64,000 bases of DNA from an uncultured Pelagibacteraceae bacterium (GTDB taxonomy: Bacteria > Pseudomonadota > Alphaproteobacteria > Pelagibacterales > Pelagibacteraceae): contig CACEIY010000003.1 of assembly GCA_902559635.1 (NCBI GenBank), positions 1,027-65,026 of the forward strand, read 5' to 3'. Shown here in pieces: positions 7,097 through 29,297 of the stretch; position 1 is the first letter of the stretch; every line of letters begins with the position of its first letter. The notes under the pieces are model-generated. The model saw nothing but the letters and a program-made list of their open reading frames with translations, was not told the origin of the DNA and did no database searches. Both the position numbers and the translations under genes were made by a program.

Positions 7097-7100
7097 TTTA

Positions 7101-8247: not shown

Positions 8248-8256
8248 AGTATTAAT

Positions 8257-8439: not shown

Positions 8440-8450
8440 ATTTTTATAAA

Positions 8451-8738: not shown

Positions 8739-8740
8739 TA

Positions 8741-10257: not shown

Positions 10258-10304
10258 CATTACTCGATTGTATTAAAAGAATTAATAGTTATATATCTGT
10301 TTCA

Positions 10305-11997: not shown

Positions 11998-12009
11998 TCG
12001 ACTTAATTT

Positions 12010-13284: not shown

Positions 13285-13336
13285 TTATAATTCCTTATTT
13301 TAGTTATTTTTTTAGAAAATTGATTAGTTGAACGAA

Positions 13337-13498: not shown

Positions 13499-13599
13499 GT
13501 AAATTATATAATTTACAGGATTTACAAAATCTATTAAAAAGTTTAAAAACCTTGTAAATTAAAGAAAAAAATTGTAAAAATAAATTTACAAAATTTACT
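13498..13599. promoter_or_regulatory. Operator array for the RamB/ScfR regulator in the aceA/regulator divergent promoter
   Basis: Perfect 20-bp palindrome TGTAAATTATATAATTTACA (13498-13517) plus TGTAAA/TTTAC half-sites at 13521, 13553, 13573, 13585 and 13594. Confidence 0.65.
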
Positions 13600-13609
13600 A
13601 ATAGAAAAT

Positions 13610-15040
13610 ATGAGTCAATTAGATTTAAAAATAGGTCCAAAAATCAAGGCTTTTCGAAGACAACTAGGACTTCAAGCCAATAAGCTTGCCGAAGACTTGG
13701 GCATATCTCCTAGTTATTTAAACCTCATAGAAGGAGGTAAAAGAAAAATTGATGGAGATCTTTTGCTTAGAATTTGTGAAAAGTTAAATATAGAGCTTTC
13801 TCAATTAACTTCAAAAACAGATATTAACTTAGAAAATACATTATCGGAAATTTTAGACGATAAACTTTTTGAAGATTTAGATATTTTAGGGCCGGAGGTA
13901 AAAGATCTTGTAGGTACTAATCCAAAAATAGGAAAAGCAATCGTAAGATTAGGAGATATTTTAAAAAAAAAAGATCACGAATTAGTTAATAAAATTGAAA
14001 AGATGTCAGGTAAAATTGTTGATAATAGAAAAAACTCTTTTCCAGGAGAAGTTATTTCTGATTTTCTTCAAGAAAATAAAAATTATTTTCCAAAACTTGA
14101 AGAGTTTGCAAATAAAGTTTTTGATAAAGTACAAAAAAATAATCGAACAAGATACATTGCTCTTTGTGATTATTTAAAGATAGAATATGGTATAACAGTA
14201 AAGGATGTAATTCCTGAAGAAGATAAACCTTTTTCAAAAATTTTTTATAAAAATAAAAAAGAATTATTATTGAGCGATTATAGTTCATTAGAAACTAAAA
14301 AACTACATGCCGCTGCTCAAATTGCACAAGAGGGAGCAAATAAAGAAATAGAGGATTATTTATCTAATTTTACATTTCCATCTGAAGAATCTAAAAAATT
14401 ATCAAAGGTAGCGCTACTGAATTACTGTGGGGCAGCTATATTAATGCCATACAAACATTTTCATTCAGAATGTAAAAAGCTTAAATATGACTTGGAATTA
14501 TTACAAAATACTTTTGCAACATCTTTTGAGCAAGTTGCACATAGAGTAACTTGTTTACAAGATCCAAAATTACCAGGAATACCATTCCATTTTTTAAGAG
14601 TTGATATGGCAGGAAATATTTCAAAAAGATTTTCATTATCTGGAATCGAAATACCTAGGTATGGAGGCGCATGTCCAAGATGGAATGTTTACTCAGCTCT
14701 TACTAGACCTGGAGTTATTCAAGCTGCAGTTAGTAAAATGACTAATGGTGAAAAGTATGTTTGTATTGCAAGGACAGTTGAAAAAGGAATTGGAAGATTT
14801 GGTCAATCAAAAAGTATTTTGTCAATTGGACTTGGATGTGAAGCTAAATATGCAAAAGATTTTGTATATACAGAAAATATGAATATCAATGATAAATCTA
14901 CAGAAATTCCAATAGGCGTATCATGCAGAACATGCGATAGATTAGACTGTTCACAAAGAGCATTTCCTCCTTTACATAAAAAGTTTGACGTTGATATTAA
15001 TACTAGAGGAGTATCTGTTTATGTTGGTGACGAAAATTAA
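13610..15040 (+). CDS. ramB: ScfR/RamB-family XRE transcriptional regulator (short-chain acyl-CoA regulator)
   Basis: N-terminal XRE HTH 'LGISPSYLNLIE', 'SFEQVAHR', 'GNISKRFS', 'GGACPRW', C-terminal 'CRTCDRLDCSQRAFP'; divergent from aceA. Confidence 0.88.
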   Translation: MSQLDLKIGPKIKAFRRQLGLQANKLAEDLGISPSYLNLIEGGKRKIDGDLLLRICEKLNIELSQLTSKTDINLENTLSEILDDKLFEDLDILGPEVKDLVGTNPKIGKAIVRLGDILKKKDHELVNKIEKMSGKIVDNRKNSFPGEVISDFLQENKNYFPKLEEFANKVFDKVQKNNRTRYIALCDYLKIEYGITVKDVIPEEDKPFSKIFYKNKKELLLSDYSSLETKKLHAAAQIAQEGANKEIEDYLSNFTFPSEESKKLSKVALLNYCGAAILMPYKHFHSECKKLKYDLELLQNTFATSFEQVAHRVTCLQDPKLPGIPFHFLRVDMAGNISKRFSLSGIEIPRYGGACPRWNVYSALTRPGVIQAAVSKMTNGEKYVCIARTVEKGIGRFGQSKSILSIGLGCEAKYAKDFVYTENMNINDKSTEIPIGVSCRTCDRLDCSQRAFPPLHKKFDVDINTRGVSVYVGDEN

Positions 15041-16981: not shown

Positions 16982-16982
16982 T

Positions 16983-17885
16983 ATGGGAAATAAAAATTCT
17001 AGAAACCTAGTCGGTTATGGATCAAAGGGTAAAAAAATCTCTTGGCCCAACAATGCAAAATTAGCTCTTCAAATAGTTTTAAATTATGAAGAAGGAGGAG
17101 AGAACTGTGTTTTAAATGGAGACAAATATTCAGAGACTTTTTTATCAGAAATTATAGGAGCAAAAGCAATCAAAGGTAGACATATTAGCATGGAAAGTAT
17201 TTATGAATATGGTTCTCGAGCAGGCTTTTGGAGATTAGATAAATTATTTAAAGAAAAAAATATTCCAGTTACAGTTTTTGGTGTAGGACTAGCTTTAGAA
17301 CAAAATCCTGAAGTTTGTAAAGCAATAAAAAATGGCAATTACGAAGTTGCTGCTCATGGCTATCGTTGGATTGATTATCAAGATATAAAAAAATCGGATG
17401 AAAAGAAGCATATGCAAAAAGCAATTAAAACTATTAAGAAAATTTTTGGTTCAAGACCGCTTGGATGGTACACAGGAAGATGTAGCCCAAATACAAGAGA
17501 TTTAGTTTTTGATGAAGGTGGTTTTTTATATGACAGTGATAGCTATAGTGACGACATTCCTTACTGGGAATATAGAGGTAAGAAAAAACAACTAATTATT
17601 CCGTATACTTTAGATAATAATGATATGCGATTTGCAACTAACCAAGGTTTTAATACTGGAGATCATTTTTACAATTATTTAAAAGATAGTTTTGATTCAT
17701 TGTACGAAGAAGGTAAAACAAATCCTAAAATGATGTCAGTTGGTTTACATTGTAGATTGATAGGAAGGCCAGGAAGAATTCAATCTTTAAAAAGATTTTT
17801 AAATTATGTTCTAAAATTTAATGATATTTGGATATGTAAAAGAATAGATATAGCAAATCACTGGATAAAAAATTATTCAAATTAA
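16983..17885 (+). CDS. puuE: Allantoinase PuuE (polysaccharide deacetylase fold)
   Basis: 'LNYEEGGE', 'ESIYEYGSRAGFWR', 'HGYRWIDYQ', 'GWYTGR', 'YTLDNNDMRF', 'GLHCRLIGRPGR'. Confidence 0.93.
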   Translation: MGNKNSRNLVGYGSKGKKISWPNNAKLALQIVLNYEEGGENCVLNGDKYSETFLSEIIGAKAIKGRHISMESIYEYGSRAGFWRLDKLFKEKNIPVTVFGVGLALEQNPEVCKAIKNGNYEVAAHGYRWIDYQDIKKSDEKKHMQKAIKTIKKIFGSRPLGWYTGRCSPNTRDLVFDEGGFLYDSDSYSDDIPYWEYRGKKKQLIIPYTLDNNDMRFATNQGFNTGDHFYNYLKDSFDSLYEEGKTNPKMMSVGLHCRLIGRPGRIQSLKRFLNYVLKFNDIWICKRIDIANHWIKNYSN

Positions 17886-17893
17886 TAGTTATA

Positions 17894-18886
17894 ATGAAAA
17901 AAAAAAATATTATTTACTTAAATGGATTAATTGATTTAGCTCAGTCAAGATTAGGTTCGAAAATAGTTTACAAAACAGATGAGTTTTTTGCACCTGCTAA
18001 AAGAATTATTAATCCTTGGCCCCCTGTATTTAAAGAAGGAGTATTTGATAAACATGGAAAATGGATGGATGGATGGGAAACTAGAAGAAAAAGAACAAAA
18101 GGCTTTGATTTTTTAATTTTAAAATTTGGAAAACCAGGTTTAATAAAAAAAGTTGATATTGATACATCATATTTTTCTGGAAATCATCCAGATCAAGTTT
18201 CATTACAAGCTTGCATTAGTAAAAAAAAAATACCTAATAAAAAAACTAAATGGATAACAATTGTTAAAAAAAGCAGAACTAAAGCAAACAGCCATCATCT
18301 ATTTAATGTAAAAAATAAAAATTACTTTACTCATATAAAATTAAATATTTTTCCTGATGGTGGAGTAGCAAGATTAAGAGTATACGGATCTATGAAAATT
18401 GTAAACAAAGTACAGAATAAAATTCAAAACCTAACATCAGTTGTGAATGGGGCAGTGCCAATAGCTTGTAATGATGAACATTTTGGAAGAGCTGAAAATA
18501 TACTTGCTCCAGGAACTGGAAAAAATATGGGTGATGGATGGGAAACTAGAAGGAGTAGGGGAAAAAATTTTGACTGGATAATAGTAAAATGTTCATCACC
18601 AGGAAAAATTAATAAAATTCAACTTGATACACATCACTTTAAAGGAAATTATCCTGATAAGTGTTCTGTACAAGCTGCCTATATTCCAAATAAAATTTCA
18701 GAAAAACATATTGTTAATAACTCAAAAAAATGGGCTTACCTTCTAAATAAGATTAAACTTCATGCCCATAAAAAACATAACTTTAATAACAAAGTAATGA
18801 AAAATAAAAAAGTAAATTATATTAGAATTAATATATTCCCAGATGGTGGAATTTCTAGAATAAGAGCTTTTGGAAAAGTAGAATGA
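17894..18886 (+). CDS. alc: Allantoicase
   Basis: Two repeats each with 'DGWETRR' and 'IFPDGG.RLR'. Confidence 0.95.
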   Translation: MKKKNIIYLNGLIDLAQSRLGSKIVYKTDEFFAPAKRIINPWPPVFKEGVFDKHGKWMDGWETRRKRTKGFDFLILKFGKPGLIKKVDIDTSYFSGNHPDQVSLQACISKKKIPNKKTKWITIVKKSRTKANSHHLFNVKNKNYFTHIKLNIFPDGGVARLRVYGSMKIVNKVQNKIQNLTSVVNGAVPIACNDEHFGRAENILAPGTGKNMGDGWETRRSRGKNFDWIIVKCSSPGKINKIQLDTHHFKGNYPDKCSVQAAYIPNKISEKHIVNNSKKWAYLLNKIKLHAHKKHNFNNKVMKNKKVNYIRINIFPDGGISRIRAFGKVE

Positions 18887-19386
18887 CTGAAAAAATAATT
18901 AAACCTCAACTTATAACTAAAGAAAATTTTAAAAAGTTTGGTGATATGATAACAACTAATGACATTAAACCTTTAGAAATAAATAATGGCTATGCCAAAA
19001 GATATGATGGTATAGCGAACTTGAACACCAAGAAAGACAATGGTGAATCCACAATTAGTATTTTTTCAGCACTTAAAAGATCTTTTCCTATGAAGATTGA
19101 CATGATGGAAAAGCATCCACTTGGAAGTCAAGCATTTATTCCAATGAAAGAAACCGTGTTTTTAGCGTTTGTTGCTCCTGAAGGTGAAAAACCAGACTTG
19201 AACAAAATTGAGTCTTTTATTATTCCTAAAGGGATAGGTGTTAATTACAATCCTGGTATTTGGCATTTTCCATTAATATCGACAGAAGATATGAATTTTT
19301 TAGTTGTAGATAGATTAGGTAGTGGAAATAATTTAGTTCTTCATGACCTAAATGAAGAAAATATTACTTTAGAATTTCAAGTATAA
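18883..19386 (+). CDS. allA: Ureidoglycolate lyase
   Basis: 'MMEKHPLGSQAFIP', 'GVNYNPGIWH', 'FLVVDR'. Confidence 0.93.
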   Translation: MTEKIIKPQLITKENFKKFGDMITTNDIKPLEINNGYAKRYDGIANLNTKKDNGESTISIFSALKRSFPMKIDMMEKHPLGSQAFIPMKETVFLAFVAPEGEKPDLNKIESFIIPKGIGVNYNPGIWHFPLISTEDMNFLVVDRLGSGNNLVLHDLNEENITLEFQV

Positions 19387-19425
19387 AAAAAAGCCCATCA
19401 ATTTCTATTGATGGGCTTTAATTTT
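19385..19425. terminator. Bidirectional intrinsic terminator
   Basis: AAAGCCCATCAAT-TTCT-ATTGATGGGCTTT between convergent allA and NCS1 genes. Confidence 0.85.
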
Positions 19426-19434
19426 AAAACTTAA

Positions 19435-20886
19435 TTATTTTTTAGATGATATCGCTAAGTGAATTACAGCACCTAAAGATGCTCCAATTATCCAAGCATA
19501 TCCTCCTCCTCCACCTAGATTAGAGAAGAAATCATCCATTCCTAAGAATAAGATGTTTGGCCATACTGTACCCACAGCTATATATCCTGAAAGTATCCAG
19601 GCTAACATTCCTTTACCATTGAAACCACCATTATAATGATACTTGCCATTAGGTGAGTCACTAAATAAATCATCAACATCTAATTTTTGTTTTTTGATTA
19701 TATAGTAATCAGTAATCATTATACCAAATACAGGTGCTAAAATTGCACCTAATGTATTTACAAAAGGAAATAATCCCATTTGCGTGATTACCGCAACCCA
19801 CATACCACCAATAACAAAACCAAAACCTGCAGTTATTAAACCACCAATTCTGAAATTAATTTTGCTTGGTATTAAGTTCGCAAGGTCATATGCAGGAGGT
19901 ATAAAGTTTGCAACCATATTAATACCAACTGTTGCTGCAAAGAATGCAAATGCTGCAACAATAGTTAATACAATATTGTCTACTTTAGCTACCATATCTG
20001 TTGGACTTGCTACATATTCTCCAAAGATAGCAATTGTACCACCAGTGATCATTAAAGTAATGAATGAGAAGAAAATAACGTTACCTACTAATCCCCATAG
20101 GTTACCTTTTTTCATTTCATCTTCATTTTTAACAAATCTTGCAAAGTCACCGAAGTTAATTACTACTGCAGCAAAATATCCAACCATAATTGAAAATACT
20201 GCTAAGAATGCACCAAATGAACCTAGGCCTTCAAATCCACCTGAACGTTCTCCACCTGAAAATATTTCACCAACTTCTGATAAAAGATTTCCCCCAGCTT
20301 TGAACCAGATTACAAGCATTAATAGAACCATAACTACATAAACAGCTGGTCCAGCAAAGTTTAAAAATCTTTTTACAAGATCTATACCCTGCCAGAATAA
20401 GTAAACTTGAAACCCTGATACAAATATAAATGACACCCACATCACACCTGTCATTCCTAAGAACATTTCAGTGCCCGGGTTACCAGTAATGCCAGTAATT
20501 AAAAGTGCTACTGCCGTCGAAGCCGCATAAGTTTGTGCTCCATACCAGAACATCGCCACTAGTCCTCTTGCCATTGCTGGAAAATTAGCTCCAAACACAC
20601 CCATACTTACCCTAGCAAATACTGGATAAGGAATTCCATGTTTGACGCTTGGTTTTCCTGATAAATTCACTAGCCACATAATAAAAAAGCCAGCAAGTAT
20701 TAGTGCTAAGAATACTGCCCAACCATTTAATCCTGAAGCTAAAAATAAAGATGCTGCCAAAGTATATCCAAATAAACTTTGTACATCGTTTGCCCACACG
20801 TTAAAGATTTCGAACCATCCCCAATTTTTTTTATTTGATGGAGTTGGTGCTAAATCCGCATTGTAGAGCGACTTTGATCTACTCAT
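19435..20886 (-). CDS. NCS1-family nucleobase:cation symporter (probable allantoin/purine permease)
   Basis: 'GIPYPVFARVSMGVFGAN', 'WYGAQT', 'INFGDFARF', 'GINMVANF'; next to allantoin catabolic genes. Confidence 0.9.
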   Translation of the reverse strand: MSRSKSLYNADLAPTPSNKKNWGWFEIFNVWANDVQSLFGYTLAASLFLASGLNGWAVFLALILAGFFIMWLVNLSGKPSVKHGIPYPVFARVSMGVFGANFPAMARGLVAMFWYGAQTYAASTAVALLITGITGNPGTEMFLGMTGVMWVSFIFVSGFQVYLFWQGIDLVKRFLNFAGPAVYVVMVLLMLVIWFKAGGNLLSEVGEIFSGGERSGGFEGLGSFGAFLAVFSIMVGYFAAVVINFGDFARFVKNEDEMKKGNLWGLVGNVIFFSFITLMITGGTIAIFGEYVASPTDMVAKVDNIVLTIVAAFAFFAATVGINMVANFIPPAYDLANLIPSKINFRIGGLITAGFGFVIGGMWVAVITQMGLFPFVNTLGAILAPVFGIMITDYYIIKKQKLDVDDLFSDSPNGKYHYNGGFNGKGMLAWILSGYIAVGTVWPNILFLGMDDFFSNLGGGGGYAWIIGASLGAVIHLAISSKK

Positions 20887-21050
20887 ATTTCCCCCTATGT
20901 TTTCGCAACTCAGAAACCTTAGATAAATAAGACTATTAAGTCTAGCATTTTATGCCAAATCTTGAATAAGAAGCGCTCAAGTTGGGCCATAATTATTGAA
21001 ATGCATGTTTAGGGTAGTTATAAAACTAATTTAAAATTCAAAATTTAATA

Positions 21051-21560
21051 ATGACAAAATTTATATCATTTTATGTAAACATAGTAGATACCATCTGCGA
21101 GAAGGTTGGCAGGTTCGTTATGTATTGGGTCTTCTTTATGATGTTCCTTTTAATTTTATCTTTTGTTACGCGTAACATAATAAATTTTCCATTAATGTGG
21201 ATAATAGAAATGGCTCAGTTTACAATTACAGCATACTATCTGTTGGGAGGAGGCTACTCTATGCTCACAGATGATCATGTTCGTATGGATTTATTTTACG
21301 GGAAGCTCTCAAAAAAAGGAAAAGCTAAAATGGATATTTTTACTAGTATATTTCTAATTTTCTTTTTATCTATTTTATTTTTTGGTTCTATAACCAGTTT
21401 AATTTATACTATTGAAACTAAACAAAAACTTTTTACTGCCTGGGCTCCATATGTTTGGCCAATTAAAAGTTTGATGTTAGCTGGAATATTATTGATGTTG
21501 CTTCAGGCTTTTTCAACATTATTTAAAGATATAGCTAAAGTTAAAAACATAAAGATATAA
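21051..21560 (+). CDS. TRAP transporter small permease DctQ
   Basis: Four TM segments, 'HVRMDLFY'. Confidence 0.9.
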   Translation: MTKFISFYVNIVDTICEKVGRFVMYWVFFMMFLLILSFVTRNIINFPLMWIIEMAQFTITAYYLLGGGYSMLTDDHVRMDLFYGKLSKKGKAKMDIFTSIFLIFFLSILFFGSITSLIYTIETKQKLFTAWAPYVWPIKSLMLAGILLMLLQAFSTLFKDIAKVKNIKI

Positions 21561-21562
21561 TT

Positions 21563-22900
21563 ATGCTAGCAGAATATTTAAGTTACGAATTTATTGCTCT
21601 TTTCATGTTTATAACAATGCTTGTTATGATGTTTACAGGACAAAGAGTATTTGGTGCAATTGGTTTTGTTGCATCTGCTTCAGCACTATTAATATGGGGA
21701 GACGGTTCTATGGAGATGCCGTATACCGCAACTTGGAAACTTTTTAAATGGTATCCAATGTTAACTTTACCTTTATTCATCTACATGGGCTTTATGATAT
21801 CTGAATCAGGAATTGCAAATGACCTTTATAAAATGTTTCATGTTTTATTTGGCGGATTGAGAGGTGGGCTTGCTATTGGAACAATGTTTATGATGGTAGC
21901 TATTTCTGCAATGAATGGTTTGAGTGTTGCAGGCATGGCAATAGGGGCAACAATTGCCTTACCAGAAATGTTAAAAAGAAATTATGATAAAAGGATGATA
22001 ACAGGAGTTGTCCAAGCTGGAAGTTCACTTGGGATTTTAATCCCTCCAAGTGTAGTGATGGTTTTATATGGTATGATTGCGCGTCAACCTGTTAGTAAAC
22101 TTTGGATGGCTGGAATTCTTCCAGGTCTATTAATGGCTACATTATTTTTAATTTACATTTACGTTAGATGCAAACTCCAGCCTGAACTCGGACCACCTTT
22201 AAAAAAAGAAGAAAGAAATGTAAGCACTATTGAAAAAATTAGGTTATTAAAAGCAGGAATAATTCCATTTTTAATATTTTTTTTAATGACAGGTTTATTT
22301 TTAATGGGTATAGCAAGTTTGGTTGAGTGTTCAGCTGTAGGAGCTTTCTTAGCAACATTAGCAGCAATTTATAAAAAAAGATTTAATAGACAAGTTTTAG
22401 AAAATACTCTTAAAAAGACTTTAGGTGTATCCTGTATGTTCATGTGGATTATTTTAGCCGCATTATGTTTTGGCGCAGTATTTGATGGTTTAGGAGCTGG
22501 TCGGGCAATTGAAACACTCTTTATAGAACGATGGAATTTAACTCCTTGGGGTGTATTAATAATGATGCAGCTATCCTATATCCTTATGGGAATGTTTTTA
22601 GATGACACTGCAATGTTAGTAATTGTTGCTCCATTGTATGTGCCTTTAATAATTGCATTAGGTTTTGATCCTATTTGGTATGGGGTTCTTTATACTATTA
22701 CTTGTCAAATTGCCTACATGACTCCTCCATTTGGTTATAATTTGTTTTTAATGAGAGCGATGGCCCCAAAAGAAATAACCTTACAAGACATTTATAGATC
22801 TATAATTCCGTTTGTTCTTATAATGGTTTTTGGTTTAGCTATAGTTATGATCTTCCCAGAAATTGCAACCTATCTTCCTGAAAAATATTTATCTAAATAA
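21563..22900 (+). CDS. TRAP transporter large permease DctM
   Basis: 'LPLFIYMG', 'SSLGILIPPSVVMVLYG', 'YMTPPFGYNLF'. Confidence 0.92.
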   Translation: MLAEYLSYEFIALFMFITMLVMMFTGQRVFGAIGFVASASALLIWGDGSMEMPYTATWKLFKWYPMLTLPLFIYMGFMISESGIANDLYKMFHVLFGGLRGGLAIGTMFMMVAISAMNGLSVAGMAIGATIALPEMLKRNYDKRMITGVVQAGSSLGILIPPSVVMVLYGMIARQPVSKLWMAGILPGLLMATLFLIYIYVRCKLQPELGPPLKKEERNVSTIEKIRLLKAGIIPFLIFFLMTGLFLMGIASLVECSAVGAFLATLAAIYKKRFNRQVLENTLKKTLGVSCMFMWIILAALCFGAVFDGLGAGRAIETLFIERWNLTPWGVLIMMQLSYILMGMFLDDTAMLVIVAPLYVPLIIALGFDPIWYGVLYTITCQIAYMTPPFGYNLFLMRAMAPKEITLQDIYRSIIPFVLIMVFGLAIVMIFPEIATYLPEKYLSK

Positions 22901-23029
22901 TTCAACTTGAAGTTTAATTTAATTTTTTACTTATTAAAATATCTTCAGATTATTTTGAATTATTAAGTTTAATAATAATTTAATTTATAATACAATTTTT
23001 TATTAAATTATAAAACGAGAGGAGACCAA

Positions 23030-24106
23030 GTGAAAAAAAACAAAAAAATAATAACGAATAAAAGACGTTCGTTTATTAAGAAAGCAGGTTTACTAACGTT
23101 AGGTGCAGCAGGAGCAACAGCAATTAAAGCTCCATATGCTTATTCTGCATCAAATCCAATCAAATGGAGATTACAGACTTATTCAGGTGCTCCACTTGGT
23201 GCACATGTTGTTAAACCACAAATTGAAGCTTTTAATAAAGCTGCTCATGGCGAGATGGAAATCGAACTTTACTATGCTGACCAACTTGTGCCTACTGATG
23301 AACTGTTTAGAGCTATGCAAGCAGGAACTATCGATGCGGTACAAAGTGATGATGCAACAATGGGTTCGCCAGTTGACATTCAGGTATTCGGTGGATACTT
23401 CCCATTTGCAACAAGATATAGTTTAGATGTTCCATCATTATTTAAATATTATGGTTTAAATGAAATTTGGGATGAAGCATATAGCGAAGTAAAAGGTGTG
23501 AAATGGTTGAGTACTAGTGCTTGGGACCCATGTCATTTATTTACAGTTAATAAAAAAGTAACCTCTTTAGCTGACATGAAAGGTTTAAGAGTTTTTGGTG
23601 TACCTACTGCAGGTAAATTCTTAGCTAAGTATGGTCTTATTCCGGTAATAGTACCATGGGATGATGTAGAGGTTGCTATGCAAACAGGTGAACTAGATGG
23701 TGTTTGCTGGTGTGGTTTCACGGAAGCTTATGAAGTGGGTTGGGCTGATATTTGTAAATACGCTCTAACTAATGCTGTAACTGGTGCATGGTTTGGATCT
23801 TATTTTGCTAACGAAAAAAGTTGGAATAAATTAAGTCCTAAACTTCAAGCTCTTTATAGAATGTCAATTAATGACTCTCATTACTATAGACAAGTATGGT
23901 ATTGGGGTGGAGAAGCCGATCTTCGTGTTAACGGTAAGAAAATGGAGTTAACAAGTCTTCCAGATAATGAGTGGAGTAAAGTTGTAGAAGACTCAAAAGC
24001 ATTCTGGGATGAAACTTCTAAGATTAGTCCAAGAGCTAAAAAAGTTGTTGATGCATTTAAGTTATATGCACAAACAATGGAGAAAGCTGGATATCCTTAC
24101 AGATAA
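23030..24106 (+). CDS. TRAP solute-binding protein, amine/ethanolamine-binding type, Tat-exported
   Basis: Tat motif 'RRSFIKK'; DctP fold; the usual carboxylate-binding Arg position reads 'GLRVF'; 'WDP' and 'WCGFTE' motifs; strong RBS GAGAGGAG before GTG. Confidence 0.8.
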   Translation: MKKNKKIITNKRRSFIKKAGLLTLGAAGATAIKAPYAYSASNPIKWRLQTYSGAPLGAHVVKPQIEAFNKAAHGEMEIELYYADQLVPTDELFRAMQAGTIDAVQSDDATMGSPVDIQVFGGYFPFATRYSLDVPSLFKYYGLNEIWDEAYSEVKGVKWLSTSAWDPCHLFTVNKKVTSLADMKGLRVFGVPTAGKFLAKYGLIPVIVPWDDVEVAMQTGELDGVCWCGFTEAYEVGWADICKYALTNAVTGAWFGSYFANEKSWNKLSPKLQALYRMSINDSHYYRQVWYWGGEADLRVNGKKMELTSLPDNEWSKVVEDSKAFWDETSKISPRAKKVVDAFKLYAQTMEKAGYPYR

Positions 24107-24119
24107 AAGATTATATTTC

Positions 24120-24146
24120 TTAGGCGCCTTAAACAAAGGCGCCTAA
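24120..24146. terminator. Hairpin terminator between convergent genes
   Basis: TTAGGCGCCTT-AAACA-AAGGCGCCTAA. Confidence 0.75.
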
Positions 24147-24155
24147 TTAAAATTT

Positions 24156-24911
24156 CTAAGGTTTTGAAGTAATACCACCATCTATAATTATTTCAGTTCC
24201 GGTAATATAATTGGCTTGTTCACTTAATAAAAACATACAACTATTCGCGATATCTTTTGGATGCCCAACTCTTTGAAGAGGTATTAATTTCTCTAATTTT
24301 TTTTTAGATTTAGGATTTTTTTTCCAACGTTTTTGCATGCCAGTTTCTATTGGACCAGGTAGTATGACATTTGATCTGATGTTATTTGAAGAAAATTGTA
24401 TCGCAAAAGATTTTGATAATCTAATCATAGCAGCTTTAGATGCTCCATAAGCATCTTGGGGTCTGTCATCACCGGATAAGGCATCAATTGAGGATAGATG
24501 AACCATTGACCCAAAATTGTTTTTTTTCATTAGTGGAACAATTATTTTAGATAAATACATCATCGATTTTAAATTAATCGCAAAAACCTTATCCCAAATT
24601 TTTGGTTTTATATCTGTAGCAGATATATCTTTATTGAACCATAATACTCCGGTAGTATTAATTAAATAATCAATGCTTTTGTTTTTTTTATAAAAAGTGT
24701 TAATTACAGATTTTAATTTATTTAAATTAGAAACATCTACTTTTTTAAAAGTACAGTTATTATTCTCTTCTAAGAATGTTTTACCTGGACTTTGAAGATC
24801 TAACATCAAAACGTTAATATCATTATCTGATAACATTTTAGAAATTTCTATACCCATACCACCACTACCACCTGTTACGATTGCATTTTTACCTTTATAA
24901 AAAAGTTTCAT
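24156..24911 (-). CDS. Short-chain dehydrogenase/reductase
   Basis: TGGSGGMG, YGASK, 'ITGTEIIIDGG'. Confidence 0.9.
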   Translation of the reverse strand: MKLFYKGKNAIVTGGSGGMGIEISKMLSDNDINVLMLDLQSPGKTFLEENNNCTFKKVDVSNLNKLKSVINTFYKKNKSIDYLINTTGVLWFNKDISATDIKPKIWDKVFAINLKSMMYLSKIIVPLMKKNNFGSMVHLSSIDALSGDDRPQDAYGASKAAMIRLSKSFAIQFSSNNIRSNVILPGPIETGMQKRWKKNPKSKKKLEKLIPLQRVGHPKDIANSCMFLLSEQANYITGTEIIIDGGITSKP

Positions 24912-26288
24912 TTATTGTTCTTTTCTTAAATGATAGCTTTTAGGAGCAGTAAGTTTTTCATATGCTACTTCAGATAAAGAACATCCTTTTCCTGTTTCTT
25001 TGACACCAGTCCAAGAAAGAGCTGGATCTAAATAATCACATCGATTCATATAAAAAGTTCCTGTTTCAATTTTATTTCCAATTTTTTCAGCTATTTCAAT
25101 ATCTTTTGTCCAAATTGAAGCTGTTAAACCATAAGGACTATCATTCATTAATTTAATTGCCTCTTCTTCATTTTTTACCTTCATTATTCCAACACAAGGG
25201 CCAAATGTTTCTTCAGTCATAAAATTCATTTCATGATTTACATTAGTTAGTATTTGGGGAATTAAATAATTTTTATGTTCATCAGGAAATTCAAATTTAT
25301 TTTCATTAATCATCTTTTTAGCTCCTTTAGCTACCGCACTATTCATCTGATTTATTATAAATTTAGCTGAAGATAATTTAACAACAGGTCCAATATTATT
25401 GCTTTTTTCTAAAGGATTACCAAGTTTATAATTATAAGTTTTATTGATAAATAAATTTAAAAAATTATCATAAATTTTTTCATCAACATAAATTCTTTCA
25501 ATTCCACAACAGGATTGACCTGAATTAAAAAATGAACCATCAACTAAATTCTCAACTGTTTTTTCTAAATCGCAATCATGTCTTGCGTATGCAGGGTCTT
25601 TGCCACCAAGTTCTAAGGCCATATCGATAAATTTAGTATGAGTTGCTTTTTGAACATCATATCCAGCTTTAACTGATCCAGTAAAAGAAACAAAATTAAT
25701 TCTTTTATCAGATACAATTTTTAAACTATCTTCATGATTTAAATGTAAATAATTAAATATATCTTTAGGTAACTTTTTTTTTGCTGATTGATAAAGTTGT
25801 TCAGCGCATAAGGGAGTTTGAGCAGAATGTTTTAAAATTACCGTATTTCCAGCAGCCATTGCAGGGATTATTGAATTTACTGCAGTTAAGTAAGGATAGT
25901 TCCATGGAGCAATAACAAAGACAACTCCTAAAGGTCTTCTTCTAATAAAATTTTTAAAATTTTTATCTTTTGTTACATCTATGTCAGATAATTTTCTTTC
26001 TGCGATTGATAGCATGTAGTCAGCTCTCTCTTTAAAACCACCGAGTTCTCCGGCTGCCTGAGTTATTGGTCTACCAATTTGTCTGCATAATTCTTCAACT
26101 ATAATTTCTTTTCTTGACAAAAAATCTTCAACAAAATTACCTAATAATTCTACTCTTTCTTTAACACTCATACTTGCCCAGCCTTTTTGAGCATTTACAG
26201 AATTATTAATGGTGTCTTCAATTTTCCCAGAATTATATTCTCTTTCAATATATAGAGTATTATCTATTGGAGTAATTGTCTTCTGCAT
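24912..26288 (-). CDS. Aldehyde dehydrogenase
   Basis: 'PWNYP', 'FTGS', 'LELGGKDP', 'FNSGQSCC', 'EETFGP'. Confidence 0.93.
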   Translation of the reverse strand: MQKTITPIDNTLYIEREYNSGKIEDTINNSVNAQKGWASMSVKERVELLGNFVEDFLSRKEIIVEELCRQIGRPITQAAGELGGFKERADYMLSIAERKLSDIDVTKDKNFKNFIRRRPLGVVFVIAPWNYPYLTAVNSIIPAMAAGNTVILKHSAQTPLCAEQLYQSAKKKLPKDIFNYLHLNHEDSLKIVSDKRINFVSFTGSVKAGYDVQKATHTKFIDMALELGGKDPAYARHDCDLEKTVENLVDGSFFNSGQSCCGIERIYVDEKIYDNFLNLFINKTYNYKLGNPLEKSNNIGPVVKLSSAKFIINQMNSAVAKGAKKMINENKFEFPDEHKNYLIPQILTNVNHEMNFMTEETFGPCVGIMKVKNEEEAIKLMNDSPYGLTASIWTKDIEIAEKIGNKIETGTFYMNRCDYLDPALSWTGVKETGKGCSLSEVAYEKLTAPKSYHLRKEQ

Positions 26289-26360
26289 AATTATTTTGGT
26301 TAAATTTATTTTATTAAATGATATATATCATCAAAATTTCTAAAACACTAAATATATAAC

Positions 26361-27524
26361 ATGAAAAAATTTAACTGGAATTATCCAACAACAATGTGGG
26401 TCGGCGAAAATAGAATTAAAGATCTTGGTTCTGCTTGTAAAACTTTAAATATAAATAAACCACTTCTTGTTACAGACAGTGGTTTAGCCCAATCAAATAT
26501 TGTAAGGAATGTATTATCAAATTTAAAAGCAGATGGAATAACTGTTGAACTTTATTCAAATGTAGTTGGTAATCCTACAGGTACAAATGTAAATGAAGGT
26601 GTTGATTATTATAAAAAAAATAAATGTGATGGAGTAATTGCATTTGGTGGAGGAAGTGGATTAGATGTTGGAAAAGCGGTTGCTTTTATGTCCTGTCAAA
26701 CTTTATCAATATGGGAATTCGAAGATGTTGGAGACAATTGGACTAAAGCTAATTCAGATAAAATTGCACCAATCATCGCTGTTCCAACAACTGCAGGAAC
26801 TGGATCAGAAACTGGAAGAGCATCTGTAATTTTAAACGAGGAAACAGGTGTTAAAAATATTATTTTTCATCCAAAATTTTTACCTTCTATAGTAATTTTA
26901 GATCCAGTTTTAACTGTTGATTTACCACCAAAAATTACTGCAGCTACTGGAATGGATGCATTGGCTCATAATTTGGAAGCCTATTGCGCACCAGGTTTTC
27001 ATCCAATGGCAGATGGGATTGCTCTGGAAGGTATGAGGTTAATTAATAAATGGTTAATTGAAGCAGTTAAAAATGGATCAAATTTAGATGCAAGAATGAA
27101 TATGCTGACTGCTGCAAGTATGGGTTCAACTGCATTTCAAAAAGGTTTAGGTGCAATTCATTCATTAAGCCATCCAGTGAATGCATTAAATAACGTTCAT
27201 CATGGTTTATCAAATGCAATATTTATGCCATATGTATTAACGTATAATAGAGATGTGATTGAACAAAAAATTATTAAAGTTTGTGATTATTTAGAATTAA
27301 AAGATAAAACATTTAAAGGATTTATTAATTGGGTTCTAGACTTGAGAAAAAAATTAGATATTCCTCATAAACTATCTGAAATAATTGAAGAAAAAGACTT
27401 TCAATTAGATCGTTTATCAAAAATGGCTTTAAAAGATCCTTCTACTGGAGGCAATCCAAAAAAATTAACAGAAGCAGATATGAAAATTATGTATCAAAAT
27501 AGTATGTCTGGCAATCTTTTTTAA
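26361..27524 (+). CDS. Iron-containing alcohol dehydrogenase
   Basis: 'GGGSGLD', 'PTTAGTGSE', 'GMDALAHNLEAY', 'HSLSH', 'HHGLSNA'. Confidence 0.93.
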   Translation: MKKFNWNYPTTMWVGENRIKDLGSACKTLNINKPLLVTDSGLAQSNIVRNVLSNLKADGITVELYSNVVGNPTGTNVNEGVDYYKKNKCDGVIAFGGGSGLDVGKAVAFMSCQTLSIWEFEDVGDNWTKANSDKIAPIIAVPTTAGTGSETGRASVILNEETGVKNIIFHPKFLPSIVILDPVLTVDLPPKITAATGMDALAHNLEAYCAPGFHPMADGIALEGMRLINKWLIEAVKNGSNLDARMNMLTAASMGSTAFQKGLGAIHSLSHPVNALNNVHHGLSNAIFMPYVLTYNRDVIEQKIIKVCDYLELKDKTFKGFINWVLDLRKKLDIPHKLSEIIEEKDFQLDRLSKMALKDPSTGGNPKKLTEADMKIMYQNSMSGNLF

Positions 27525-28318
27525 TGACTAATTTGAATATTCTTATAGTAGAAGGAAACAATCTTGCAGATAATGAAGTTTTTGAGAAAGCTGCTGGAGC
27601 ATCTTGTTCTAAAAATTTTAAAAATCTTATTTTAAAATTAGAACCTAATACCAATATTAAAATAATTAATCCAGCAATAGATGAACAAACTAAAAAAGCT
27701 TTAGACAATATGAAAGAATATGATGGTATTATTTTTACAGGAGGTGCAATGAGATTGAATGACATGACCGATGAAATTAAAAAGCACATCAAATTTGCAT
27801 CTAATTGCTTTAATCATAATAATAAAATTTTAGCTATTTGTTGGGGATTACAAGTTTGTTCAACTGCTGCAGGAGGTAAAGTAGCACCTGGAAAAAAGGG
27901 CGTACATATTGGCATTGCATCTGATGTGGAGATTAATGAAGAAGGAAAAAAAAATCCTATCTATAAAGATAAAAAATCTAAATTTACTTCTCCTGCATTT
28001 AATTTTGATGAAGTATATGAAATGCCTAATGATGCTACTTTATTGTCGAGTGATAAAATTAATAATGTAATGGGATTATATTTTAAATCTGGTAACTCTG
28101 AAATTTGGGGTCTACAATATCACCCAGATTATGAATACTGGCAAATGATTAATTTATCTAATGTAAGAAAATTACGTATTATAGCTAATAAACATTTCGA
28201 AAATGAAAATGATTTTGAAAAGCATATAGAATATTTAAAAAGTGAAGATAAAAAATTAAATTTTGTTAATAGAACTTGCGAAGTTCGAAATTGGCTAGAT
28301 ATAATTAAAAATAAATGA
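27524..28318 (+). CDS. Class I glutamine amidotransferase-like protein (possible gamma-glutamyl amide hydrolase)
   Basis: 'DGIIFTGG', nucleophile 'AICWGLQ', 'GLQYHPD' (HPE becomes HPD); translationally coupled to Fe-ADH. Confidence 0.8.
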   Translation: MTNLNILIVEGNNLADNEVFEKAAGASCSKNFKNLILKLEPNTNIKIINPAIDEQTKKALDNMKEYDGIIFTGGAMRLNDMTDEIKKHIKFASNCFNHNNKILAICWGLQVCSTAAGGKVAPGKKGVHIGIASDVEINEEGKKNPIYKDKKSKFTSPAFNFDEVYEMPNDATLLSSDKINNVMGLYFKSGNSEIWGLQYHPDYEYWQMINLSNVRKLRIIANKHFENENDFEKHIEYLKSEDKKLNFVNRTCEVRNWLDIIKNK

Positions 28319-28629
28319 AAATTTATTTTATTTACTCAACATTCAAATCATTAAGAGAAGCAAAAAAAATAAGTTCTAAACTAGTTAAACTAAAATTAGC
28401 AGCTTGTACTAATATAATTCCAACTATTTATTCAACTTATGTATGGAAAAAAAAAACGCATATAGACAAAGAATGTTCTATGATTATAAAAACTTCAAAA
28501 TCAAAAGTACAAAAAGCTATTATCTTTATTAAGAAAAAACATTCTTATGAATGTCCTGCAATATCTGCTTTTCCAATAAAAAAATCTCATAAAGACTTTG
28601 AAAAATGGATAATAGATCAAACAAAATAA
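28315..28629 (+). CDS. cutA: Divalent-cation tolerance protein CutA
   Basis: 'KLAACTNI', 'STYVW', 'HSYECPAI'. Confidence 0.9.
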   Translation: MKIYFIYSTFKSLREAKKISSKLVKLKLAACTNIIPTIYSTYVWKKKTHIDKECSMIIKTSKSKVQKAIIFIKKKHSYECPAISAFPIKKSHKDFEKWIIDQTK

Positions 28630-28667
28630 CTGTTTAAATTATATTTTTTTGTAATTACTATTAATTT

Positions 28668-29297
28668 ATGTGTGGAAGATACGTTGTAACAAACCCAGTT
28701 TCAAAAACTAAAAAATTAGTAAAATCTGCAATACAGGTAGAAGATAATGAAAATTATAATGCACATCCTAATCAAAAATTACCAGTTATCAAAAAATATA
28801 AAAATGGAAATACTTTAGAAAATCTTAAATGGGGTTTATTACCTAGTTGGGCCAAAGACAAAGATTTTAAATCTTTGATAAACGCAAGATTAGAAACAAT
28901 AGATGAAAAAGTTTCTTTTAAAAAACTTATTAAAGATTTCAGATGTGTAGCGATTGCAGATGGTTTTTATGAATGGAAGAGAGAAGATAAAAAAAAAATC
29001 CCTTATTATTTTATTCGTCAAGATAAAAAACCTATTTTTATAGCAGCTATTTTTGAAAATGATCAATTTTGTTTAATTACAGAAGAAGCAAAAGAAAATA
29101 TTAGATCAATTCATCATCGTCAACCAGTTATTCTAAATCATACAGATATTAATCGATATTTAAATTTAGGACTATTAGGGTCTGGTTTTTTAAAAGAATG
29201 TAAAAAACCAGATTTAATTTTTCATGAAGTTTCTAAAGATGTTAATATACCTACTAATAATACCGCTTCATTGATACAAAATGTATCAAATAATTAA
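28668..29297 (+). CDS. SRAP/YedK (HMCES-like) abasic-site processing protein
   Basis: N-terminal MCGRY, 'INARLET', 'GFYEW', 'HHRQPVIL'. Confidence 0.9.
   Translation: MCGRYVVTNPVSKTKKLVKSAIQVEDNENYNAHPNQKLPVIKKYKNGNTLENLKWGLLPSWAKDKDFKSLINARLETIDEKVSFKKLIKDFRCVAIADGFYEWKREDKKKIPYYFIRQDKKPIFIAAIFENDQFCLITEEAKENIRSIHHRQPVILNHTDINRYLNLGLLGSGFLKECKKPDLIFHEVSKDVNIPTNNTASLIQNVSNN

What the first reader, a model, noticed from the sequence alone, without database searches (positions are those of the whole stretch)
21051..28318. Amine-type TRAP plus ALDH, Fe-ADH and GATase: candidate variant ethanolamine-to-glycine pathway in a glycine auxotroph
Seen: the DctP has Phe ('GLRVF') where TRAP proteins carry the carboxylate-binding Arg, plus 'WDP' and 'WCGFTE' motifs; it clusters with an SDR, an aldehyde dehydrogenase, an Fe-alcohol dehydrogenase and a class I GATase. 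Known: the Chromohalobacter salexigens ethanolamine TRAP protein (Csal_0678) lacks that Arg and uses Asp/Trp/Glu, and its cluster glutamylates ethanolamine, oxidises it with Fe-ADH and ALDH, then releases glycine with an amidohydrolase. Inference: the same chemistry here, but with a GATase (unusual HPD triad) replacing the N-formylglutamate amidohydrolase-type enzyme, an extra SDR, and no glutamylase gene in the cluster. This would link phospholipid head-group scavenging to SAR11's glycine requirement.
Basis: partly seen in the sequence, partly recalled or inferred. Interest (0 to 1): 0.8.

Follow-up and report, generated by a model that had tools for sequence, protein, structure and literature searches.

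The report
SAR11 ethanolamine uptake and glycine-forming genes
A minority of the ocean's most abundant bacteria (SAR11) carry an importer for ethanolamine, a lipid head-group, next to enzymes that most likely turn it into glycine, which these cells need from outside; the gene for the first chemical step is missing and the route is untested.

Summary
Window 21051-28318 encodes DctQ, DctM, a Tat-exported DctP, SDR, ALDH, Fe-ADH and a class I GATase.

- **Binding protein.** It matches the ethanolamine-bound Csal_0678 structure 4UAB (E 9e-128). Phe189 replaces the TRAP carboxylate-binding Arg. W165, D166 and E232 are invariant in 73 relatives.
- **Dehydrogenases.** ALDH and Fe-ADH are orthologues of the gamma-glutamyl-ethanolamide pathway enzymes.
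- **GATase.** Its subfamily sits in GS-ALDH-FeADH-GATase operons of other Alphaproteobacteria. Its model best matches plant gamma-glutamyl peptidase 1. It therefore fits as the gamma-Glu-Gly hydrolase; no FGase gene was found.
- **Missing step.** No eto-type GS-like glutamylase exists in five complete carrier genomes.
- **Composite locus.** Of 120 Pelagibacter genomes, 101 have the Fe-ADH, 11 the SDR and the ALDH, and 10 the TRAP protein.

Prior work reduces the novelty. Strain HTCC1062 has the same enzyme genes (SAR11_1286-1289), drawn in 2011 as "methanol metabolism". Its SAR11_1290 binding protein resisted characterisation. SAR11 etoX was reported from metagenomes in 2023.

Verdict: a new variant of a known pathway, likely yielding glycine, with an open first step. 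Interest is moderate. A related ethanolamine importer was noted earlier in this scan on other DNA (e1-4856922).

The parts
21051..21560 (+). TRAP small membrane subunit (DctQ; EtoV-like)
   Evidence: Pfam DctQ, E 3.9e-19. 43-48% identical to the Q subunits of the canonical Ruegeria and P. albus ethanolamine clusters.
21563..22900 (+). TRAP large membrane subunit (DctM; EtoW-like)
   Evidence: Pfam DctM, E 4.7e-69. 69% identical to the M subunits of the Ruegeria and P. albus clusters.
23030..24106 (+). Tat-exported TRAP solute-binding protein, EtoX/Csal_0678 type (ethanolamine receptor)
   Evidence: phmmer E 9e-128 to PDB 4UAB over residues 39-358. Phe189 lies at the position of the conserved TRAP Arg. 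W165, D166, F189, E232 and W254 are invariant in 73 family members. Contigs from four marine RNA libraries lie on this gene.
24120..24146 (.). Perfect 9-bp GC-rich hairpin (TTAGGCGCC / GGCGCCTAA, 9-nt loop) between the convergent EtoX and SDR genes; likely a bidirectional terminator
   Evidence: Read directly from the sequence. Its function is inferred.
24156..24911 (-). Short-chain dehydrogenase (SDR), role unresolved; possibly a second gamma-glutamyl-ethanolamide dehydrogenase
   Evidence: Pfam adh_short_C2, E 2.4e-53. No NCBIfam model passes its cut-off. 57-69% identical orthologues sit in HIMB59-type EtoX clusters. Found only in the 11 ALDH-carrying genomes of 120.
24912..26288 (-). Aldehyde dehydrogenase, orthologue of gamma-glutamyl-aminoacetaldehyde dehydrogenase
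   Evidence: Pfam Aldedh, E 1e-115. 47-48% identical to the ALDH of the canonical clusters. 50-53% identical to the single best hit in five genomes, and that hit lies inside a GS-ALDH-FeADH-GATase locus.
26289..26360 (.). 72-bp AT-rich divergent intergenic region between ALDH and Fe-ADH (shared control region, inferred)
   Evidence: Sequence. Promoter-like matches are no more frequent than in shuffles.
26361..27524 (+). Iron-containing alcohol dehydrogenase, orthologue of gamma-glutamyl-ethanolamide dehydrogenase; near-core in the genus (SAR11_1287 type)
   Evidence: Pfam Fe-ADH plus ADH_Fe_C. 52-53% identical to canonical-cluster Fe-ADHs. The best hit in five other genomes is the operon gene (407-464 bits), while the next paralogue scores at most 260 bits. 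Present in 101 of 120 genomes.
27524..28318 (+). Stand-alone class I glutamine-amidotransferase-fold enzyme; proposed gamma-glutamyl-glycine hydrolase (SAR11_1286 type)
   Evidence: Pfam GATase, E 4.6e-17. Cys106/His200/Asp202. Its start overlaps the Fe-ADH stop (TAATG). Subfamily members lie in GS-ALDH-FeADH-GATase operons. AF2 model has pLDDT 95.6, and the best full-length PDB match is gamma-glutamyl peptidase 1 (TM 0.74/0.78).

Best explanation
The locus takes up ethanolamine and oxidises it to glycine through gamma-glutamylated intermediates.

1. The Tat-exported EtoX-type binding protein captures ethanolamine, and perhaps close amino alcohols, in the periplasm. DctQM imports it. The homology is shown; binding is inferred.
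2. Ethanolamine is joined to glutamate by an enzyme not encoded here. The candidates are the two resident GS-family paralogues: the GmaS/GlnT-like protein and the 489-aa GS-like protein on contig C2. This step is pure inference.
3. Fe-ADH, and possibly the SDR, oxidises gamma-glutamyl-ethanolamide to the aldehyde.
4. ALDH oxidises the aldehyde to gamma-glutamyl-glycine.
5. The stand-alone GATase-fold enzyme cleaves gamma-glutamyl-glycine through a gamma-glutamyl-Cys106 intermediate, releasing glycine and glutamate. It takes the place of the N-formylglutamate-amidohydrolase-type enzyme of the canonical pathway. Steps 3-5 rest on orthology, gene context and fold; no activity is shown.

The locus has two layers. 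Fe-ADH-GATase is a near-core Pelagibacter pair. TRAP+SDR+ALDH is an accessory module found in about 9% of species-level genomes and always joined to that pair or co-present with it.
For: **Binding protein**
- E 9e-128 to ethanolamine-bound 4UAB, with Phe at the Arg position.
- 187 of 358 columns are at least 97% conserved across 73 relatives. These include the binding proteins of the canonical FGase-QMP-GS-ALDH-FeADH clusters of Ruegeria and Microbulbifer. E232 corresponds to the Glu220 platform residue of Csal_0678 (PMC12410723).
- The Phaeobacter homologue binds ethanolamine with Kd 7.9 uM, and its operon is induced on phosphoethanolamine (PMC10132767).

**Dehydrogenases**
- ALDH is 47-53% and Fe-ADH 49-54% identical to the genes inside GS-linked operons. 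These are the top genome-wide hits in five genomes from three families.

**GATase**
- Profile matches in 52 of 401 sampled Alphaproteobacteria. In seven extended loci the gene lies in or next to GS-ALDH-FeADH.
- A Rhodospirillales contig has GATase-Q-M-P-GS.
- Catalytic Cys and His are invariant.
- The fold is closest to gamma-glutamyl peptidase 1.
- The gene is translationally coupled to Fe-ADH.

**Other**
- No FGase in the own genome or in five complete carriers.
- SDR, ALDH and EtoX co-occur even where they are unlinked, as in G677.
- A Streptomyces ethanolamine cluster with SDR, ALDH, GlnA4 and GATase gives precedent (PMC6529630).
Against: - No orthologue of the eto-type GS-like glutamylase exists. 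The best matches in five complete carrier genomes are 32-33% identical GmaS-like genes. Carriers and non-carriers have the same three GS paralogues.
- Fe-ADH and GATase are present in most Pelagibacter genomes that lack the importer, SDR and ALDH. The pair therefore has some role independent of imported ethanolamine.
- SAR11 GATases are only 25-29% identical to those in GS operons.
- 47-54% identity does not fix substrate specificity for ALDH or Fe-ADH families.
- The SDR has no assigned step.
- No enzyme or binding assay exists for any SAR11 protein here. [quoted passage not shown]
Confidence: 0.6

Rival explanations
1. Direct oxidation without glutamylation. Imported ethanolamine is oxidised as the free amine by Fe-ADH or SDR to aminoacetaldehyde, and by ALDH to glycine. 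The GATase-fold enzyme serves another gamma-glutamyl or glutamine-hydrolysing task.
For: - No glutamylase in the cassette and no eto-type GS in complete carrier genomes.
- Several HIMB59-type EtoX clusters also lack the GS gene while keeping SDR-ALDH-FeADH.
- GATase occurs alone in some genomes.
Against: - ALDH and Fe-ADH are orthologues of enzymes encoded in GS-containing operons.
- GATase is translationally coupled to Fe-ADH and syntenic with it in GS operons of other families.
- From general knowledge, free aminoacetaldehyde is unstable, which is the usual rationale for glutamylation.
Confidence: 0.15
2. Fe-ADH (SAR11_1287 type) is mainly a methanol or short-chain-alcohol dehydrogenase feeding the THF-linked C1 oxidation pathway, as proposed in 2011. 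Its adjacency to the ethanolamine module is secondary.
For: - Sun et al. 2011 proposed this and drew fhs-SAR11_1286-Fe-ADH-ssdH-SAR11_1289 as 'methanol metabolism' (PMC3160333).
- Fe-ADH is present in 101 of 120 genomes, mostly beside fhs and without TRAP, SDR or ALDH.
Against: - Its best relatives outside SAR11 are the Fe-ADHs inside GS-ALDH-FeADH-GATase and FGase-QMP-GS-ALDH-FeADH clusters, at 49-58% identity. Other Fe-ADH paralogues in the same genomes are at most 40% identical.
- It is always paired with the GATase, which has no role in methanol oxidation.
- No methanol activity was measured for the enzyme in that paper.
Confidence: 0.12
3. The main substrate is another small uncharged or cationic alcohol, such as L-alaninol, 1-amino-2-propanol, serinol or glycerol. 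The product would then be alanine, serine or another compound rather than glycine, and the SDR would handle a secondary alcohol.
For: - The same Csal_0678 sequence has a second PDB entry, 4XF5. From memory it holds an aminopropanol; this was not checked here.
- The SDR has no step in the two-oxidation ethanolamine scheme.
- EtoX-type TRAPs sit beside FGGY kinase, FAD oxidoreductases and a GlpR-type regulator in Paracoccus, Rhodobacter and Tabrizicola.
Against: - The binding-site motifs are invariant between the SAR11 protein and the binding proteins of canonical ethanolamine clusters.
- Two family members were shown experimentally to bind ethanolamine (PMC10132767, PMC4646407).
- In P. albus the kinase genes accompany GS-ALDH-FeADH rather than replace them.
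Confidence: 0.1

Closest known systems
Ethanolamine TRAP transporter and gamma-glutamyl pathway of Chromohalobacter salexigens (Csal_0678 cluster) and Phaeobacter sp. MED193 (EtoVWX, ETAGA, GETADH, GAADDH, GGAH; PMC10132767)
   Same: Orthologous Q, M and P subunits. The binding protein lacks the Arg and keeps the Glu platform and aromatic residues. Fe-ADH and ALDH are orthologous. The predicted end products are glycine plus glutamate.
   Different: No GS-like glutamylase. No FGase-type amidohydrolase; a class I GATase-fold enzyme stands in its place. No RpiR regulator. An added SDR. The enzyme genes are split into a near-core pair and an accessory module.
Streptomyces coelicolor GlnA4 ethanolamine utilisation cluster (SCO1610-1615; PMC6529630)
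   Same: A cluster of short-chain dehydrogenase, aldehyde dehydrogenase and glutamine amidotransferase proposed to process gamma-glutamyl-ethanolamide to glycine.
   Different: Streptomyces encodes the glutamylase GlnA4 and uses a permease rather than a TRAP system. It has no Fe-ADH. Its later steps are also only predicted.
GS-ALDH-FeADH-GATase operons of other Alphaproteobacteria (loci L117-L123, found here)
   Same: Same GATase subfamily (CWG...QYHPE/D...NW), same Fe-ADH and ALDH orthologues, and the same Fe-ADH-GATase adjacency.
   Different: They include the GS-like ligase, which is 67-72% identical to GS genes that sit beside EtoX elsewhere. They have no TRAP genes nearby. They carry HPE rather than HPD.
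Arabidopsis gamma-glutamyl peptidase 1 (PDB 9K7I-9K7L) and E. coli PuuD (gamma-glutamyl-GABA hydrolase)
   Same: Stand-alone class I GATase fold that hydrolyses a gamma-glutamyl amide through a Cys thioester. GGP1 is the best full-length structural match (TM 0.74/0.78).
   Different: Only about 17% sequence identity to GGP1. The Pfam Peptidase_C26 (PuuD family) match is marginal (E 7e-4). The third triad residue is Asp instead of Glu.
Candidatus Pelagibacter ubique HTCC1062 locus fhs-SAR11_1286..SAR11_1290 (PMC3160333, PMC11485210)
   Same: The same gene series of GATase, Fe-ADH, ALDH (ssdH), SDR and binding protein, in the order seen in loci L022, L023 and L050 beside fhs.
   Different: Here the cassette lies at another chromosomal site, after an allantoin module and not beside fhs. 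The published annotation is 'methanol metabolism' and the binding protein's ligand is unassigned. Equivalence to SAR11_1290 is inferred from gene order; the sequence was not compared.

Membership tests
EtoX / Csal_0678-type ethanolamine TRAP binding proteins | DctP (SBP_bac_7) fold with adjacent DctQ and DctM genes | tested here: met
   Pfam DctP E 4e-17, DctQ and DctM directly upstream.
EtoX / Csal_0678-type ethanolamine TRAP binding proteins | Loss of the conserved carboxylate-binding Arg (SiaP Arg147 equivalent), usually replaced by Phe | tested here: met
   Phe189 aligns with the Arg of 4YZZ and 2HZK. The position is invariant Phe in 73 relatives. The rule is stated in PMC4646407.
EtoX / Csal_0678-type ethanolamine TRAP binding proteins | Acidic platform residue (Csal_0678 Glu220) and surrounding aromatic residues | tested here: met
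   E232 in WCGFTE aligns with the Glu of WSGITE in 4UAB. E232, W165, W227, W254 and Y123 are invariant. The residue's role is from PMC12410723. The numbering offset is my inference.
EtoX / Csal_0678-type ethanolamine TRAP binding proteins | Measured binding of ethanolamine | not testable with these tools
   Binding is shown only for Csal_0678 and MED193_10041 (PMC10132767). The HTCC1062 homologue was insoluble (PMC11485210).
Gamma-glutamyl ethanolamine-to-glycine pathway (Csal/Phaeobacter type) | GS-like ethanolamine gamma-glutamylase | tested here: not met
   Absent from the cluster. The best matches in the own genome are 27-31% identical and in five complete carriers 32-33%. GS paralogue counts are equal in carriers and non-carriers.
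Gamma-glutamyl ethanolamine-to-glycine pathway (Csal/Phaeobacter type) | Fe-ADH-type gamma-glutamyl-ethanolamide dehydrogenase | tested here: met
   Orthology only: 52-53% to canonical-cluster genes, and top genome-wide hits lie in GS operons. Activity not tested.
Gamma-glutamyl ethanolamine-to-glycine pathway (Csal/Phaeobacter type) | ALDH-type gamma-glutamyl-aminoacetaldehyde dehydrogenase | tested here: met
   Orthology only: 47-48% to canonical-cluster genes, and it is the single top hit in GS operons at 50-53%.
Gamma-glutamyl ethanolamine-to-glycine pathway (Csal/Phaeobacter type) | N-formylglutamate-amidohydrolase-type gamma-glutamyl-glycine hydrolase (PF05013) | tested here: not met
   No PF05013 match in the own genome (77% complete) or in five complete carrier genomes.
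Class I GATase-fold gamma-glutamyl hydrolases (GGP1 / PuuD-like) | Cys-His-Glu catalytic triad | tested here: inconclusive
   Cys106 and His200 are invariant. The third residue is Asp202 (HPD) in cassette-type SAR11 copies and Glu in all other subfamily members. Whether Asp supports catalysis is untested.
Class I GATase-fold gamma-glutamyl hydrolases (GGP1 / PuuD-like) | Stand-alone enzyme without a synthase partner, with a fold like known gamma-glutamyl peptidases | tested here: met
   The neighbours are Fe-ADH and CutA. The AF2 model has pLDDT 95.6, and its best full-length match is GGP1 at TM 0.74/0.78. GMP synthase subunits match only the core, at TM about 0.55.
Class I GATase-fold gamma-glutamyl hydrolases (GGP1 / PuuD-like) | Hydrolysis of a gamma-glutamyl amide (here gamma-Glu-Gly) | not testable with these tools
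   Only gene context supports it: GS-ALDH-FeADH-GATase operons.

The most novel reading that the evidence does not exclude
SAR11 dispenses with the ATP-dependent GS-like ligase. The GATase-fold enzyme would work in both directions on its gamma-glutamyl-Cys106 intermediate. It would first transfer the gamma-glutamyl group from glutamine to ethanolamine, an ATP-free transamidation, and later hydrolyse gamma-glutamyl-glycine. One small enzyme would then replace both the glutamylase and the amidohydrolase of the canonical pathway. This would also explain why Fe-ADH and GATase form the conserved core pair.
Probability: 0.07. Interest if true: 0.8.

Novelty: new variant of a known kind. Interest (0 to 1): 0.55.

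Why it matters
SAR11 needs an outside source of glycine or serine (Tripp 2009 and Carini 2013, as cited in PMC3870248). Phosphatidylethanolamine head-groups are released everywhere in the sea, and etoX transcripts are abundant in Tara Oceans data (PMC10132767).

If this cassette makes glycine plus glutamate from ethanolamine, a defined subset of Pelagibacter can cover its glycine need from lipid debris. In the sample used here that subset is about 9% of species-level genomes, and it probably includes the type strain HTCC1062. The route would also supply nitrogen.

The reading would re-assign genes that have stood since 2011 as 'methanol metabolism'. It would also give a ligand to SAR11_1290, one of two HTCC1062 binding proteins left unassigned in 2024.

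It can be tested directly in a cultured strain on defined medium. The missing glutamylase is a concrete open question about how streamlined genomes re-use paralogues.

Tried and rejected
- **Rfam.** A scan of the whole window at gathering thresholds gave no match, so there is no glycine riboswitch or other known RNA at the locus.
- **Promoters and terminators.** The consensus scan found no more sites than in shuffled sequence.
- **Vetting et al. 2015.** The paper could not be read under three identifiers. The pathway scheme is therefore taken from PMC10132767 and PMC6529630.
- **Clifton et al. 2024.** No supplementary text is held, so what the authors predicted for SAR11_1290 is unknown.
- **Read laying.** Only contigs were available. 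The pile-up on the EtoX gene cannot rank expression, and the thin cover of the other genes is not evidence of silence.
- **Dedicated glutamylase.** The own genome, five complete carriers and five non-carriers yielded only GlnA, a GmaS/GlnT-like gene and a 489-513-aa GS-like gene.
- **Co-occurrence of the 489-aa GS-like gene with Fe-ADH.** It is strong (98 of 120 against 101 of 120, largely the same genomes). I reject it as evidence because the genes lie about 14-20 kb apart in one island and the genomes are kin.
- **GshA/GshB downstream of the GATase.** The GCS2-type ligase and glutathione synthetase found there in six loci were considered as a glutamylase. I set this aside as ordinary glutathione synthesis in a variable flank.
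- **Glycerol as the ligand.** This was considered because of FGGY-kinase neighbours in other taxa. It is not favoured because the binding-site residues are invariant across the family.

Full report
**What is there**

The window is low-GC DNA (about 28% GC) from a Pelagibacter (SAR11) single-cell or metagenome assembly. The assembly has 58 contigs and is 77% complete. The closest loci are all Pelagibacteraceae.

Positions 21051-28318 hold seven genes:
- DctQ, DctM and DctP on the plus strand
- SDR and ALDH on the minus strand
- Fe-ADH and a class I GATase on the plus strand

Three details of layout are read from the sequence:
- The DctP and SDR genes converge on a perfect 9-bp GC-rich hairpin at 24120-24146.
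- ALDH and Fe-ADH diverge from a 72-bp AT-rich spacer.
- The Fe-ADH stop overlaps the GATase start as TAATG.

**The binding protein**

It carries a twin-arginine signal. It matches PDB 4UAB with E 9e-128 across residues 39-358. 4UAB is Csal_0678 with ethanolamine bound (PMC12410723, PMC4646407).

In the alignments to ordinary TRAP receptors 4YZZ and 2HZK, Phe189 takes the place of their conserved arginine. PMC4646407 describes this arginine as the carboxylate selectivity filter and notes that Csal_0678 lacks it.

I aligned 73 family members from SAR11, HIMB59-type Alphaproteobacteria, Rhodobacterales, Rhodospirillales and Gammaproteobacteria. In that alignment 187 of 358 columns are at least 97% conserved. 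W165, D166, F189, E232 and W254 are invariant. E232 aligns with the Glu of Csal_0678 that PMC12410723 names as the platform for the ethanolamine amine and hydroxyl. The numbering offset is my inference.

The set includes the binding proteins of canonical clusters on a Ruegeria plasmid and a Microbulbifer plasmid. The Phaeobacter homologue binds ethanolamine with Kd 7.9 uM (PMC10132767). I therefore hold ethanolamine binding to be very likely, though it is untested for any SAR11 protein.

**The enzymes**

The canonical cluster reads RpiR, FGase, Q, M, P, GS-like, ALDH, Fe-ADH (scheme in PMC10132767).

The window's ALDH is 47-48% identical to the canonical ALDH, and its Fe-ADH is 52-53% identical to the canonical Fe-ADH. 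Other ALDH paralogues in these loci reach only about 28%.

In five complete or nearly complete genomes from three other alphaproteobacterial families, the best genome-wide hit lies inside a GS-ALDH-FeADH-GATase locus:
- Fe-ADH: 49-54% identity, 407-464 bits. The next paralogue scores at most 260 bits.
- ALDH: 50-53% identity.

This supports orthology with the gamma-glutamyl-ethanolamide and gamma-glutamyl-aminoacetaldehyde dehydrogenases. It does not prove the substrates.

**The GATase**

It has Cys106 in AICWGLQ and His200-Pro-Asp202. The Asp is conserved in cassette-type SAR11 copies. A second SAR11 paralogue type and all non-SAR11 members have HPE.

A profile of the subfamily finds it in 52 of 401 sampled Alphaproteobacteria. 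I extended twelve of those loci, and seven showed linkage to the pathway genes:
- GS-ALDH-FeADH-GATase, contiguous, in three loci
- GS-FeADH-GATase in one locus
- GS, ALDH and GATase together in three loci; in two of them Fe-ADH is also present, and the GS lies about 2.5 kb from the GATase

The GS genes in these loci are 67-72% identical to GS genes that sit directly beside EtoX in other genomes. A Rhodospirillales contig reads GATase-Q-M-P-GS.

An AlphaFold model built from 17 sequences has mean pLDDT 95.6. Its best full-length match is Arabidopsis gamma-glutamyl peptidase 1 (TM 0.74/0.78). GMP synthase glutaminase subunits match only the core, at TM about 0.55.

PF05013 (FGase) finds nothing in the own genome or in five complete carrier genomes.

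Together this makes the GATase the likely gamma-glutamyl-glycine hydrolase. The idea is not new in kind. The Streptomyces ethanolamine cluster holds an SDR, an ALDH, the proven glutamylase GlnA4 and a glutamine amidotransferase, and was proposed to run the same chemistry (PMC6529630).

**What is missing**

The GS-like glutamylase is absent from the cluster. In HIMB59-type relatives, whose binding protein is 84-85% identical, it sits directly after the binding-protein gene in most loci.

Five complete Pelagibacter genomes that carry the cassette have only three GS-family genes: GlnA, a GmaS/GlnT-like gene of about 445 aa, and a GS-like gene of 493-513 aa. Four of five complete genomes without the cassette have the same three. 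The best match to an eto-type GS is the GmaS-like gene at 32-33% identity.

In the own genome both GS-like genes lie on contig C2, each beside a set of N-methylglutamate-synthase-like genes.

So the first step is unassigned. A resident paralogue may moonlight. The pathway may run without glutamylation. Or, more speculatively, the GATase may transfer the gamma-glutamyl group from glutamine.

**The locus is composite**

Counts in 120 genomes of the genus that are at least 90% complete:

| Gene | Genomes with an orthologue |
|---|---|
| Fe-ADH (63-88% identity) | 101 |
| ALDH | 11 |
| SDR | 11 (the same genomes) |
| EtoX | 10 of those 11 |

The eleventh genome is cut at a contig end. In one genome (G677) the TRAP genes lie about 290 kb from SDR-ALDH-FeADH, yet all are present.

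Genomes without the module still have Fe-ADH-GATase, or the GATase alone. The pair usually lies beside formate-THF ligase.

Compared with one such genome (G023), the window carries two insertions:
- 9.4 kb upstream of Fe-ADH, comprising an allantoin/NCS1 module plus QMP-SDR-ALDH
- about 1 kb downstream of the GATase, comprising CutA and SRAP

Whether the module was inserted or repeatedly lost was not resolved.

**Relation to the literature**

- Sun et al. 2011 drew fhs, SAR11_1286 (glutamine amidotransferase), SAR11_1287 (Fe-ADH), ssdH and SAR11_1289 (SDR) of HTCC1062 as 'methanol metabolism'. They proposed the Fe-ADH as a short-chain alcohol dehydrogenase (PMC3160333).
- Clifton et al. 2024 could not express the next gene, the binding protein SAR11_1290. 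They list 4UAB among the structures cited (PMC11485210).
- Wilhelm et al. 2007 list SAR11_1288 among genes missing from the sister strain HTCC1002 (PMC2217521).
- Westermann et al. 2023 named etoX and assigned 19% of Tara etoX hits to Pelagibacterales (PMC10132767).
- Full-text searches found no paper that links ethanolamine with HTCC1062 metabolism or with the SAR11 glycine requirement.

That the HTCC1062 locus equals this cassette is inferred from gene order (loci L022, L023 and L050). The sequences were not compared directly.

**Expression**

Contigs from four marine RNA libraries, from three studies, lie densely on the EtoX gene and sparsely on the other genes. Because these are contigs, this shows only that such sequences occur in RNA libraries. 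It does not give relative expression.

**Verdict**

Four corrections apply:
1. The cluster is a near-core pair plus an accessory module.
2. The GATase variant recurs outside SAR11.
3. No glutamylase can be found in the genome.
4. Parts of the story are already in print under another label.

I put 0.6 on the gamma-glutamyl route to glycine. The value of the finding lies in a sharp, cheap growth and tracer experiment in a cultured strain, and in the open question of the first step.

Noticed in passing
window 16982-26360 and 28315-29297: Relative to an EtoX-less Pelagibacter genome (G023, locus L131), the window has a 9.4-kb insertion between a conserved 370-aa gene and Fe-ADH, made of the allantoin/NCS1 module plus DctQMP-SDR-ALDH. 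It has a further insertion of about 1 kb (CutA, SRAP) after the GATase. Flanks of the cassette differ among 24 SAR11 loci, so this is a variable region anchored on the Fe-ADH-GATase pair.
   Followed up: partly
L085 (Paracoccus albus plasmid) 2027-13924; also L056, L068, L077, L080-L082: EtoX-type TRAP genes sit beside an FGGY-family kinase, two FAD oxidoreductases and a DeoR/GlpR regulator. In P. albus these occur together with GS-ALDH-FeADH. In SAR11 loci such as L008 and L021 the cassette follows ABC transporter-FGGY kinase-GpsA-like-FMO genes. Glycerol-type and ethanolamine genes co-localise repeatedly, which hints at joint use of glycerophosphoethanolamine breakdown products.
   Followed up: partly
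own genome contig C2:43340-48032 and C2:58411-62669 (L003, L002): There are two separate sets of a GS-like ligase plus N-methylglutamate-synthase-like genes. One starts with a highly conserved 489-aa GS-like protein (82-98% identical across the genus). The other ends with a GmaS/GlnT-like protein that passes the TIGR03105 cut-off. The substrate of the first set is unknown.
   Followed up: partly
G008:C2:469507-470280 (L125); G023 (L131 9690-10478); G050 (L133 9576-10358): SAR11 has two paralogue types of the GATase. Type A has HPD and includes the window's copy. Type B has HPE and is 40-44% identical to it. Some genomes have both, and either type can be paired with Fe-ADH.
   Followed up: partly
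G677:C1:904428-905498 versus C1:615439-618798: In one complete genome the EtoX TRAP gene lies about 290 kb from SDR-ALDH-FeADH, yet all are present. This is co-occurrence without linkage.
   Followed up: no
window 24120-24146: A perfect 9-bp GC-rich inverted repeat (TTAGGCGCC ... GGCGCCTAA) in otherwise AT-rich DNA lies between the convergent binding-protein and SDR genes. The terminator scan missed it.
   Followed up: no
L028-L042 (HIMB59-type loci): Within this group the GS-like gene after the binding-protein gene is present in some loci (L028-L032, L035, L038, L041) and absent in others (L033, L037, L039, L042). The rest of the cluster is kept, so the dedicated glutamylase is dispensable in a second streamlined lineage too.
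   Followed up: no
window 20700-20966: The 3' end of the NCS1 permease gene is also heavily represented among contigs of the four marine RNA libraries.
   Followed up: no
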